DNA from: Dendronephthya gigantea
Taxonomy: Eukaryota
Assembly (NCBI RefSeq): GCF_004324835.1
Contig: NW_021163311.1
Coordinates: 10,208 to 74,207, forward strand
Reading direction: 5' to 3'
DNA: 64,000 nt
Positions 36,001-39,000 of the stretch are shown here, one piece after another. The position numbers and the translations under genes are program-made. The notes under the pieces are model-generated. The model made no database searches. It had not been told where the DNA came from and worked only from the letters and a program-made list of their open reading frames with translations. The first letter of the stretch is position 1, and each line of letters opens with the position of its first letter.

Positions 36001-39000
36001 CAGCTTATTGTAGAATACTACCTACACTGGACCACCACGTTTCAGATATCTTTCTCAGGTAGTTCAGATCGACACAAACCACATTAGCTCATTGTAGAAT
36101 ACTACCTACACTGGACCACCACGTTTCAGATATCTTTCTCAGGTAGTTCAGACACAAAACACAACAACTCATTGTAGAATACTACCTACACTGGACCACC
36201 AGGTTTGAGATATCTTTCTCAGGTAGTTCAGACACAAACCACGACAGCTTATTGTAGAATACTACCTACACTGGACCACCACATTTAAGATATCTTTCTC
36301 AGGTAGTTCAGATACAAACCACGACAGCTTATTGTAGAATACTACCTACACTGGATCACCACGTTTGAGATATCTTTCTCAGGTAGTTCAGACACAAACC
36401 ACGACAGCTTATTGTAGAATACTACCTACACTGGACCACTATGACCATATTTGAGACACGGTTTTTCAGGACATAGTTCAACCAATACTTACCATGCTCT
36501 GGGACTAAGTGATATTGGACTTAGCCCTGGCGGGGCACTTAAGCATTTCTGTGAGCCACTATATATAACATCGATTTCCAGCTCATCAACATTGATTGTT
36601 GATCCCCCAAGTGATGCCACAGTATCAACAATTAAAACACAATCATTGCTACAAAATATAACAAGTTTTTTAAACTTAAATTTTTCTCTAACATTAACAA
36701 GATACACAGATAGATAGTTTTGTTAACTCACTAACTGACAGTACTCTTCCACTGATGAGTAAAATCATCTGACATTAGACAGAGTAAAATACTAAAGTAG
36801 GTCACATTTGGGTGCATTGCAAGCTAATGGGTTAACAAGAGACACTGACAGATAGTTTTGTCAACTTATTAACTGACAGTACTATTCCACTGATGAGTAA
36901 AATCGTCTGACATTAGACAGAGTAAAATACTAAAGTAGGTCACATCTGGGTGCATTGCAAGCTAATAGGTTAACAAGAGACACTGACAGATAGTTTTGTC
37001 AACTTATTAACTGACAGTACTATTCCACTGATGAGTAAAATCATCTGACATTAGACAGAGTAAAATACTAAAGTAGGTCACATCTGGGTGCATTGCAAGC
37101 TAATGGGTTAACAAGAGACACTGACAGTTAGTTTTGTTAACTTATTAACTGACAGTACTCTTCCACAGATGAGTAAAATCATCTGACATTAGACAGTGTA
37201 AAATACTAAAGCAGGTCACATCTGGGTGCATATATTGCAAGCTAATAGGTTAACAAGAGACACTGACAGATAGTTTTGTTAACTTATTAACTGACAGTAC
37301 TCTTCCACTGATGAGTAAAATCATCTGACATTAGACAGAGTAAAATACTAAAGTATAGGTCACATCTGGGTGCATTGCAAGCTAATAGGTTAATTAACAA
37401 GAGACACTGACAGTTAGTTTTGTTAACTTATTAACTGACAGTACTCTTCCACTGATGAGTAAAATCATCTGGAAAAGTGTAAGTTCATAATGCAAGGAAA
37501 TGGTTGAGCAATAGACACTCACTTATGACAGAGTTCTCCAATTCCTTCAAGAGGCTGACATGTTGTACCAGAAGACTCACCATGGGCGATGAAAACTACG
37601 CTTGGTCTGTGTTCCTCTATTCCCTGAAAAAGTTACAAAACAAGAGATCAGCGAGCTACTTGGTGACGCCACTCTAGCTACCTTAAATCACAAGAAAAGT
37701 TATTCATAATGAAACCTTTTTAATGTCTTCTAAGGTAAAGACTTCACCAATTGGTCTCTCTATCTTCCTCACATCACAACCTGGCAAAATTTAAAAGAAT
37801 TTGAGCATAGTTCATTTGGAATTAAACATAACAGAGTCTAGTTGGTTAACAAAAGTTGACAGATAGTTTTGTTAACTTATTAACTGACAATACTCTTCCA
37901 CTGATGAGTAAAATCATCTGACATTAGACAGAGTAAAATACTAAAGTAGGTCACATCTGGGTGCATTGCAAGCTAATGGGTTAACAAGAGACACTGACAG
38001 ATAGTTTTGTTAACTTATTAACTGACAGTACTCTTCCACTGATGAGTAAAATCATCTGACATTAGACAGAGTAAAATACTAAAGTAGGTCACATCTGGGT
38101 GCATTGCAAGCTAATGGGTTAACAAGAGACACTGACAGTTAGTTTTGTTAACTTATTAACTGACAGTACTCTTCCACAGATGAGTAAAATCATCTGACAT
38201 TAGACAGTGTAAAATACTAAAGCAGGTCACATCTGGGTGCATATATTGCAAGCTAATAGGTTAACAAGAGACACTGACAGATAGTTTTGTTAACTTATTA
38301 ACTGACAGTACTCTTCCACTGATGAGTAAAATCATCTGACATTAGACAGAGTAAAATACTAAAGTATAGGTCACATCTGGGTGCATTGCAAGCTAATAGG
38401 TTAATTAACAAGAGACACTGACAGTTAGTTTTGTTAACTTATTAACTGACAGTACTCTTCCACTGATGAGTAAAATCATCTGGAAAAGTGTAAGTTCATA
38501 ATGCAAGGAAATGGTTGAGCAATAGACACTCACTTATGACAGAGTTCTCCAATTCCTTCAAGAGGCTGACATGTTGTACCAGAAGACTCACCATGGGCGA
38601 TGAAAACTACGCTTGGTCTGTGTTCCTCTATTCCCTGAAAAAGTTACAAAACAAGAGATCAGCGAGCTACTTGGTGACGCCACTCTAGCTACCTTAAATC
38701 ACAAGAAAAGTTATTCATAATGAAACCTTTTTAATGTCTTCTAAGGTAAAGACTTCACCAATTGGTCTCTCTATCTTCCTCACATCACAACCTGGCAAAA
38801 TTTAAAAGAATTTGAGCATAGTTCATTTGGAATTAAACATAACAGAGTCTAGTTGGTTAACAAAAGTTGACAGATAGTTTTGTTAACTTATTAACTGACA
38901 ATACTCTTCCACTGATGAGTAAAATCATCTGACATTAGACAGAGTAAAATACTAAAGTAGGTCACATCTGGGTGCATTGCAAGCTAATGGGTTAACAAGA

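What the first reader, a model, noticed from the sequence alone, without database searches (positions are those of the whole stretch)
37471..38870. AGXT exons 2 and 3 are duplicated within a perfect 1010-bp higher-order satellite repeat inside intron 1
Blocks 37471-38480 and 38481-39490 are essentially identical. Each holds ~620 bp of 136-bp satellite plus a 390-bp segment containing exon 2 (65 nt) and exon 3 (101 nt). Using both copies would add 166 nt and shift the frame. So this is a very recent intragenic duplication needing exon skipping, a polymorphic or disabling allele, or an assembly artefact of the satellite.
Basis: seen in the sequence. Interest (0 to 1): 0.6.

Follow-up and report, generated by a model that had tools for sequence, protein, structure and literature searches.

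The report
Recent two-exon duplication in coral AGXT
In one copy of the soft coral Dendronephthya gigantea's AGXT gene, exons 2 and 3 plus some intronic satellite DNA form a perfect 1,011-bp tandem duplication; it looks like a very recent unequal exchange between satellite arrays on either side of the exons, would break the reading frame if both copies were spliced in, and is an ordinary kind of event.

Summary
The period is 1011 bp, not 1010. Positions 37023-38116 are 100% identical to 38034-39127, which makes 2.08 perfect units. The gene is on the minus strand.

The window is Dendronephthya gigantea DNA. Splicing ten exons with one E2/E3 pair gives 383 aa, identical to NCBI XP_028417267.1. 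Including both pairs adds 166 nt and creates a stop at codon 167.

The same 138-bp satellite fills intron 1 and intron 3, on both sides of the exon pair. The middle array is a chimera: M2=L3, M3=L4, and M1 is a hybrid of R1 and L2 with an 83-bp exchange window. That pattern is the signature of an in-register unequal exchange.

Paramuricea (two genes) and Xenia each have a single E2/E3 pair and no such arrays.

This gene copy also uniquely lacks six conserved residues just before the PLP-binding SGTGH loop. An intact 389-aa copy sits on another contig.

Most likely this is a real, very young, frame-disrupting duplication in a redundant allele or paralogue that is probably already impaired. An assembly artefact cannot be excluded without reads, but the usual artefact signs visible in sequence are absent. 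It is a known kind of event and of low to moderate interest.

The parts
37023..39127 (.). Perfect tandem duplication: 2.08 units of 1011 bp. 37023-38116 is identical to 38034-39127.
   Evidence: Flanking mismatches are 37022 A / 38033 C and 38117 G / 39128 T.
36694..37472 (.). Array L of the 138-bp satellite (about 5.6 monomers). It fills the intron between exon 3a and exon 4, starting 45 nt from the exon 4 acceptor and ending 50 nt from the exon 3a donor.
37473..37837 (-). Unique 365-bp exon block, copy A (exon 3a, a 92-nt intron, exon 2a and short flanks).
37523..37623 (-). AGXT exon 3, copy a (101 nt). Acceptor TTTTTCAG, donor GTGAGT.
37716..37780 (-). AGXT exon 2, copy a (65 nt). Acceptor TTTGCCAG, donor GTTTCA.
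37838..38483 (.). Middle array M, a chimera. Its left part is identical to the start of array R and its right part is identical to the end of array L (M2=L3, M3=L4, 0 differences).
38034..38116 (.). 83-bp exchange window inside hybrid monomer M1 (37983-38120). The left side is R1-type (38011 T, 38033 C) and the right side is L2-type (38117 G).
38484..38848 (-). Unique 365-bp exon block, copy B, identical to copy A.
38534..38634 (-). AGXT exon 3, copy b (101 nt).
38727..38791 (-). AGXT exon 2, copy b (65 nt).
38849..39509 (.). Array R of the 138-bp satellite (about 4.8 monomers) in intron 1. It starts 57 nt from the exon 2b acceptor and ends 134 nt from the exon 1 donor.
39644..39971 (-). AGXT exon 1 (328 nt, ATG at 39971). 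An 18-bp in-frame deletion junction lies between 39777 and 39776. It removes six residues (TKNKMT in the other D. gigantea copy) just before the SGTGH PLP loop.
36493..36648 (-). AGXT exon 4 (156 nt).
33039..35870 (-). AGXT exons 5-10: 35775-35870, 35130-35199, 33911-34006, 33743-33825, 33247-33292, 33039-33149. Other intronic tandem arrays lie at 35886-36439 (80 bp, just outside this range, in intron 4), 34026-35089 (77 bp) and 33361-33731 (114 bp).
24807..25362 (.). Another array (4 copies) of the same 138-bp unit, upstream of a RING/TRAF-Kelch gene. Single copies lie at 14901-15038, 19860-20001 and 30002-30140, and an inverted copy at 5147-5303. The unit is therefore a dispersed element.

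Best explanation
This is a real and very young tandem duplication of a 1011-bp segment: exon 2, exon 3, their 92-nt intron and about 4.6 satellite monomers.

**Origin.** It arose by an in-register unequal homologous exchange between two same-orientation arrays of one 138-bp satellite. Unequal crossing-over and replication template switching give the same product. The arrays lie in intron 1 and intron 3, on either side of the exon pair.
- Shown: the hybrid junction monomer, the zero divergence between copies, and the single-copy state in outgroups.

**Consequence.** The two exon pairs have identical splice sites and identical context for hundreds of bases. Ordinary splicing should therefore include all four exons, which puts a stop codon 5 nt into the second exon 2. 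That is 706 nt before the last exon junction, so the transcript should be degraded by nonsense-mediated decay (NMD).
- Three splice paths that use only one pair all give the same normal 383-aa reading frame.
- Inferred: the splicing outcome and the NMD fate.

**Why it is tolerated.** This gene copy probably carries no selective burden. It already lacks six universally conserved residues next to the PLP-binding loop. An intact 389-aa copy also exists on another contig of the same assembly, either as the other haplotype or as a very recent paralogue.
- Inferred: the loss of function and the allelic relationship.
For: - **Duplication.** There is a 1094-bp perfect run at lag 1011, and the exon blocks are identical.
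- **Chimera.** M2=L3 and M3=L4 with 0 differences. M1 matches R1 at two left-hand diagnostic sites and L2 at the right-hand site. This is what an exchange within an 83-bp stretch shared by L2 and R1 would produce.
- **Gene model.** Ten exons with canonical sites give 383 aa, identical to XP_028417267.1. Including both pairs gives a stop at codon 167.
- **Outgroups.** The two tandem Paramuricea clavata AGXT genes and the Xenia gene each have a single E2/E3 pair. Neither species has arrays of the 138-bp unit; Paramuricea has only single, degenerate copies.
- **Redundancy and impairment.** The six-residue gap is unique among 122 aligned AGXT proteins and is also a gap against solved structures. 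An intact 389-aa D. gigantea copy lies on a 375,850-bp contig.
- **Against an artefact.**
  - The window contains no N.
  - The duplication is at least 24 kb from either window end.
  - The copies show zero divergence. The other locus encodes K where both window copies of exon 3 encode E, so the two copies are not juxtaposed haplotypes.
  - The published signs of false duplication are gaps, haplotype k-mers and half read depth (PMC9516828).
  - The assembly used 108x PacBio reads, which should span a 3-kb region (PMC6447388).
Against: - No reads or transcripts of D. gigantea could be reached, so neither the copy number nor the splicing outcome has been observed.
- Apart from the two lesions, the gene copy is intact. 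All splice sites are canonical, the frame is open, and it differs from the intact copy by only two amino-acid substitutions. 'Impaired and redundant' is therefore an inference.
- NCBI's model for this locus is a clean 383-aa protein with no low-quality flag.
- The genome is highly heterozygous and was assembled with an early FALCON version plus short-read correction. Short-read correction could erase small differences between copies.
Confidence: 0.6

Rival explanations
1. Assembly artefact. The real locus has one exon pair, and the assembler went round a 1011-bp loop through the satellite twice, or stitched together reads that differ in array length.
For: The copies are perfectly identical. 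The event lies inside a tandem repeat. The draft was assembled with FALCON 0.3.0 from a highly heterozygous animal, and it is 3.6% larger than the estimated genome. False exon duplications are documented in other assemblies (PMC9516828). The junction monomer is not unique as an 85-mer, so the sequence gives no internal check.
Against: There is no gap between the copies and they are not near a window end. Juxtaposed haplotypes should differ, yet the copies are identical and both lack the E-to-K difference seen at the other locus. The whole region is about 3.3 kb and contains two 365-bp unique anchors, so most reads at 108x long-read coverage should span it (inference). Neighbouring monomers and the other repeats in the window were not homogenised.
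Confidence: 0.18
2. The duplication is real and the gene stays functional. One exon pair is always skipped, or double-inclusion transcripts are removed by NMD. This would be a new-born cluster of mutually exclusive exon pairs.
For: Three of the four sensible splice paths give the normal frame. The 166-nt unit is not a multiple of 3, so NMD would clear double-inclusion transcripts; this is a known way of enforcing exclusivity (my own knowledge; the topic is covered in PMC6071210 and PMC4165533, listed). NCBI predicts a clean 383-aa product.
Against: The copies are identical, so there is no isoform gain. No complementary docking or selector sequences were found; the only inverted repeats are 16 nt long and centred on a GTTAAC palindrome. 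The intervening introns are long (753 nt), so nothing sterically blocks splicing. The splice sites and their context are identical for both pairs. The copy also lacks six conserved residues.
Confidence: 0.15
3. An older duplication whose copies are kept identical by continuing gene conversion.
For: Satellite arrays are prone to conversion, and arrays L, R and the one at 24.8 kb differ by only 1-3%.
Against: The identity tract is exactly one period plus 83 bp and ends in single diagnostic mismatches inside one hybrid monomer. That is the footprint of a single exchange. Nothing requires conversion tracts longer than 1 kb that cover unique sequence.
Confidence: 0.05

Closest known systems
Repeat-mediated (non-allelic homologous recombination) intragenic exon duplications, e.g. 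Alu-Alu duplications of exons in human LDLR, BRCA1 and KMT2A (my own knowledge)
   Same: Direct repeats in two introns flank the exons. An in-register exchange gives a head-to-tail duplication with a hybrid repeat at the junction. An out-of-frame duplication gives a premature stop.
   Different: The recombining repeats here are two short tandem arrays of a 138-bp satellite, not dispersed SINEs. The organism is an octocoral. The copy number has not been confirmed with reads.
Tandem exon duplication as the origin of mutually exclusive exons (Kondrashov and Koonin 2001 and Letunic et al. 2002, from my own knowledge; PMC6071210)
   Same: Tandem copies of homologous exons share the same length and phase. 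Double inclusion breaks the frame.
   Different: The unit is a pair of exons. The copies have not diverged at all. No cis element that would enforce exclusivity was found, and there is no transcript evidence.
Higher-order repeats of satellite DNA (e.g. primate alpha satellite; my own knowledge)
   Same: A multi-monomer unit is repeated with higher identity between units (100%) than between the monomers within a unit (90-99%).
   Different: There are only 2.08 units, and 365 of the 1011 bp are unique genic sequence. It is a single duplication event, not an established array.
False duplications in genome assemblies (PMC9516828)
   Same: The duplicated exons are in a draft assembly of a heterozygous animal.
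   Different: There is no gap, no divergence between copies, and the position is internal. Read depth could not be tested.
Satellites derived from miniature inverted-repeat or foldback elements (known in bivalves and Drosophila; my own knowledge)
   Same: The 138-bp unit is dispersed as single copies and expands to arrays in place. In Paramuricea intron 1 a 138-bp unit is bounded by perfect 20-bp inverted termini, CATTAGACAGAGTAAAATAA.
   Different: The D. gigantea monomer keeps only one arm of that element. No target-site duplications or transposase link were examined.

Membership tests
Tandem exon duplication by unequal homologous exchange between flanking repeats | Two copies lie head to tail with no spacer. 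| tested here: met
   Period 1011 bp; a 1094-bp perfect run at that lag.
Tandem exon duplication by unequal homologous exchange between flanking repeats | The breakpoint lies in homologous, same-orientation repeats and leaves a hybrid repeat. | tested here: met
   M1 is R1-type on the left and L2-type on the right; M2=L3 and M3=L4.
Tandem exon duplication by unequal homologous exchange between flanking repeats | Relatives have the single-copy ancestral state. | tested here: met
   Paramuricea clavata (two genes) and Xenia sp. have one E2 and one E3 each.
Tandem exon duplication by unequal homologous exchange between flanking repeats | Spanning reads support the copy number. | not testable with these tools
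   No D. gigantea reads or second locus could be fetched.
Mutually exclusive exon cluster | Tandem homologous exons have the same length and phase. | tested here: met
   The pairs are identical, 65 + 101 nt.
Mutually exclusive exon cluster | The copies have diverged so that they encode different isoforms. | tested here: not met
   0 differences.
Mutually exclusive exon cluster | A cis mechanism enforces exclusivity (competing RNA structures, steric block, incompatible splice sites). | tested here: not met
   Only 16-nt inverted repeats were found. The intervening intron is 753 nt, and all sites are GT-AG. NMD of the out-of-frame product remains possible.
Mutually exclusive exon cluster | Transcripts contain exactly one unit. 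| not testable with these tools
   No D. gigantea transcript data were reachable.
Satellite higher-order repeat | Identity between units exceeds identity between monomers. | tested here: met
   100% against 1-14 differences per monomer pair.
Satellite higher-order repeat | The unit is made of satellite monomers only and is repeated many times. | tested here: not met
   365 of the 1011 bp are unique genic sequence, and there are 2.08 copies.
False (assembly) duplication | There is a gap between the copies, or they sit at a contig end. | tested here: not met
   No N in the window. The duplication is at least 24 kb from both window ends.
False (assembly) duplication | The copies carry haplotype-specific differences. 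| tested here: not met
   The copies are identical. The other locus differs in exon 3 (GIEKHRP against GIEEHRP).
False (assembly) duplication | Read depth is half normal, or very low. | not testable with these tools
   No reads were available.
AGXT / class V aminotransferase (PF00266) | Full-length similarity to AGXT proteins and solved structures. | tested here: met
   (E about 1e-117 to 1e-124 against PDB AGXT/HKT).
AGXT / class V aminotransferase (PF00266) | The conserved Q-T-x-N-x-x-T segment precedes the SG(T/S)GH PLP loop. | tested here: not met
   The six residues are missing only in the window protein, out of 122 aligned sequences.

The most novel reading that the evidence does not exclude
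The duplication is real, and the gene still makes normal enzyme because each transcript uses only one of the two identical exon pairs, with NMD removing the rest. That would be a mutually exclusive exon-pair cluster caught at birth, at zero divergence, and created by intronic satellite arrays.
Probability: 0.1. Interest if true: 0.55.

Novelty: new member of a known kind. Interest (0 to 1): 0.25.

Why it matters
If real, this is a clean, datable example of how satellite arrays in neighbouring introns expose the exons between them to duplication or deletion by unequal exchange. The breakpoint can be narrowed to 83 bp.

It also shows that automatic annotation can hide such a lesion, because the NCBI model simply uses one exon pair.

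For D. gigantea, the practical point is that one of its two AGXT entries should be treated as a probable defective allele or paralogue. Gene counts and intron statistics in this satellite-rich draft genome also need read-level checks.

It does not open a new biological question.

Tried and rejected
- **Hammerhead ribozyme.** The satellite contains CTGATGAG, which suggested this. Rfam gave nothing at gathering thresholds on the whole window. At E<=1 on 33000-40100 it gave only two chance ToxI hits inside exon 2. Rejected.
- **Fetching the second D. gigantea locus or the window's own record.** I tried by exact protein for both AGXT isoforms, the 383-aa model, the exon 1 ORF, the neighbouring 144-aa ORF and a RING-Kelch ORF. 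Nothing is on record. An exact cluster look-up of ten window ORFs also found nothing.
- **Allele or paralogue.** I searched homologues of the adjacent RING/TRAF-Kelch protein to test whether the two contigs are allelic. The best hits are only 76-77% identical and none is from D. gigantea, so this was uninformative.
- **Satellite in metagenomes.** A scan for the satellite core gave 0 hits.
- **Competing RNA structures.** I looked for docking or selector sequences that could enforce exclusive splicing. Only trivial 16-nt inverted repeats turned up.
- **Short-read junction marker.** The 85-mer spanning the diagnostic sites of the hybrid monomer also occurs at 25058, 37895 and 38906, so it cannot serve as a marker.
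- **Synteny with Paramuricea outside AGXT.** None was detectable.

Full report
**What the window is**

I placed ten coding exons by hand, all with canonical AG/GT boundaries.

Spliced with one copy of exons 2 and 3, they give a 1152-nt open frame of 383 aa. That protein is identical to NCBI XP_028417267.1 of the octocoral Dendronephthya gigantea, which sits on a 152,650-bp contig.

Pfam PF00266 is precomputed for the homologues. Solved AGXT and 3-hydroxykynurenine transaminase structures match at E about 1e-117 to 1e-124.

**The observation**

At lag 1010 there is no identity run of 40 bp or more. At lag 1011, positions 37023-38116 are identical to 38034-39127, a run of 1094 bp that amounts to 2105 bp or 2.08 units.

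In the correct frame they are 1011/1011.

Each unit holds:
- a 365-bp non-satellite block (37473-37837, identical to 38484-38848), containing exon 3 (101 nt), a 92-nt intron and exon 2 (65 nt) on the minus strand;
- about 646 bp of a 138-bp satellite.

This is far beyond chance and beyond the repeat background. Monomer pairs not related by the duplication differ at 1-14 positions, whereas M2/L3 and M3/L4 differ at none. The window's other tandem duplications, units of about 5 kb and 4.2 kb, are only 89-97% identical.

**Anatomy and origin**

The same 138-bp satellite, in the same orientation, fills the introns on both sides of the exon pair:
- Array L, 36694-37472, lies between exon 3 and exon 4.
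- Array R, 38849-39509, lies between exon 1 and exon 2.

Both arrays come within 45-134 nt of the splice sites.

The middle array M (37838-38483) is a chimera. Its first part is identical to the start of R. Monomers M2 and M3 are identical to L3 and L4, including their private 4- and 6-bp indels.

M1 is a hybrid. It carries the R1 bases at 38011 and 38033, and the L2 base at 38117. The exchange therefore happened inside the 83 bp (38034-38116) where L2 and R1 are identical.

This is the textbook footprint of one in-register unequal exchange between direct repeats. The sequence cannot say whether it was a crossover or a template switch. The inferred parental structure is L - exon block - R, and it is 1011 bp shorter.

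**Age**

There are no differences in 1011 bp. A Poisson 95% bound on divergence is about 0.3% (my calculation). That is much younger than anything else duplicated in the window, so the variant may well still be polymorphic.

**Comparative evidence**

*Paramuricea clavata.* A contig (L001) carries two tandem AGXT genes with the same exon structure, and each has one exon 2 and one exon 3. Its introns 1-3 contain only single, degenerate copies of the 138-bp unit, 74-86% identical and in both orientations.

*Xenia sp.* The gene (L002) is compact, with short introns. It has no copy of the unit and a single exon pair.

The arrays flanking exons 2-3 and the duplication are therefore specific to the D. 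gigantea lineage.

*Within the window.* The unit is a dispersed element. Single copies lie upstream of three RING/TRAF-Kelch genes, a four-copy array lies upstream of a fourth, and one copy is inverted. All are 89-99% identical to the intronic monomers. Recent independent insertion followed by local amplification is a plausible route to having arrays in both introns. That step is inferred.

**Consequence for the gene**

If all four exons are spliced in, the 166 extra nucleotides shift the frame. A TGA appears at codon 167, 5 nt into the second exon 2 and 706 nt before the last exon junction. By the usual rule, which I take from general knowledge, such a transcript is an NMD target.

Three splice paths restore the normal mRNA: skip pair a, skip pair b, or join exon 2b to exon 3a.

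The two pairs have identical splice sites and identical surroundings for hundreds of bases. The intron between them (753 nt) resembles its neighbours. No complementary sequences that could enforce exclusive choice were found. I therefore expect mostly double inclusion. This is an inference, because no transcripts were available.

**Status of this gene copy**

Exon 1 carries an in-frame 18-bp deletion, with its junction between 39777 and 39776. It removes six residues: TKNKMT in the other D. gigantea copy, equivalent to human T70-T75.

These residues lie immediately before the SGTGH loop, which binds PLP in human AGT according to my own knowledge. Among 122 aligned AGXT proteins, only the window protein and its own NCBI entry lack this segment. 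The same gap appears against solved structures.

A second D. gigantea gene (XP_028415290.1 / XP_028415292.1, 389 aa, on a 375,850-bp contig) retains the segment. It otherwise differs at two residues.

The published assembly is FALCON 0.3.0 on 108x PacBio reads with Illumina correction. The animal is highly heterozygous, the assembly is 3.6% above the estimated genome size, and about 7% of BUSCO genes are duplicated (PMC6447388).

The two contigs may therefore be the two haplotypes. A very recent paralogue is the alternative. I could not decide between them. Either way the animal has an intact copy, which explains why a frame-breaking duplication could persist.

**Real or artefact**

I could not access reads. 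The sequence-level signs of false duplication reported for other assemblies are gaps between copies, haplotype-specific differences and contig-end position (PMC9516828). All three are absent here:
- The window has no N.
- The event is internal to the window.
- The copies are identical, and both differ from the other locus at the exon 3 E/K site, so they are not the two haplotypes placed side by side.

The whole region is about 3.3 kb and contains unique anchors, so long reads should span it easily. I put an artefact at roughly 0.18.

**Comparison with what is known**

The mechanism matches repeat-mediated intragenic exon duplication, best known from Alu-Alu events in human disease genes (my own knowledge). 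Here, satellite arrays take the place of SINEs.

It resembles the first step towards mutually exclusive exons, but it fails two defining features: diverged copies and an enforcing cis mechanism.

It is HOR-like only in the weak sense that a multi-monomer unit is repeated.

**Verdict**

This is a new member of a known kind, of low to moderate interest (0.25).

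Noticed in passing
window 39776-39777 (exon 1, minus strand): An in-frame 18-bp deletion removes six residues (T-K-N-K-M-T in the other D. gigantea copy) just before the SGTGH PLP loop. It is unique among 122 aligned AGXT proteins.
   Followed up: yes
window 33039-39971: Tandem arrays make up 59% of the AGXT gene span: the 138-bp unit in introns 1 and 3, an 80-bp unit in intron 4, a 77-bp unit in intron 6 and a 114-bp unit in intron 8. Introns without arrays are 85-97 nt, with intron 5 (575 nt) as the exception. Take out the array and each array-bearing intron shrinks to about 60-190 nt, so it is essentially a short intron plus one array.
   Followed up: partly
window 35886-36439 and 33361-33731; L001 5525-5683, 11996-12323, 6562-6844, 13411-13691: The 80-bp (intron 4) and 114-bp (intron 8) arrays sit at the same intron positions in both Paramuricea clavata AGXT genes. 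Best pairwise identity is 88-95%, and the 80-bp consensus sequences are nearly identical by eye. These arrays therefore predate the species split and the Paramuricea gene duplication.
   Followed up: partly
L001 3703-8046 and 8526-13789: Paramuricea clavata has two complete AGXT genes in tandem, 480 bp apart. The D. gigantea window has only one full gene.
   Followed up: no
window 10793-11054, 12757-12869, 17708-17964, 22243-22409: Copies of AGXT exons 9 and/or 10 (minus strand) recur downstream of the gene, one per repeat unit of about 5 kb. The other D. gigantea locus has isoforms X1 and X2 that differ only in the last exon (N against K), which suggests such copies are used as alternative last exons in gene models.
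   Followed up: partly
window 2958-32442 (+ strand): Seven tandem, intronless genes or pseudogenes encode proteins of about 540 aa with RING/TRAF zinc fingers and Kelch repeats. The repeat units are about 5 kb and 89-97% identical; one copy is 5'-truncated (11241) and one is frameshifted (15444/15704). More than 1,100 database proteins match at E<=1e-150, mostly from octocoral-like ENA assemblies and Paramuricea, so the family is hugely expanded.
   Followed up: partly
window 42099-60468: Four to five tandem units of about 4.2 kb, 90-97% identical, each carry three small ORFs with signal-peptide-like N-termini (123-150 aa). None has a Pfam match.
   Followed up: no
L001 4301-4438: In Paramuricea intron 1, the relative of the satellite unit is a 138-bp element bounded by perfect 20-bp inverted termini (CATTAGACAGAGTAAAATAA), with arms that look like inverted copies of each other. 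The D. gigantea satellite may therefore derive from a MITE or foldback element.
   Followed up: partly
L002 9366-9457 (Xenia sp. AGXT exon 6): The Xenia AGXT has an in-frame TGA where D. gigantea has CGA (..VYAL*EAL..). The NCBI model is truncated to 251 aa and also omits exon 2. This is either a pseudogene or an assembly error.
   Followed up: no
window 37719-37753 and 38730-38764 (minus strand): There are weak Rfam ToxI matches (26.7 bits, E=0.18, gathering score 50) inside both copies of exon 2. I judge them to be chance.
   Followed up: yes
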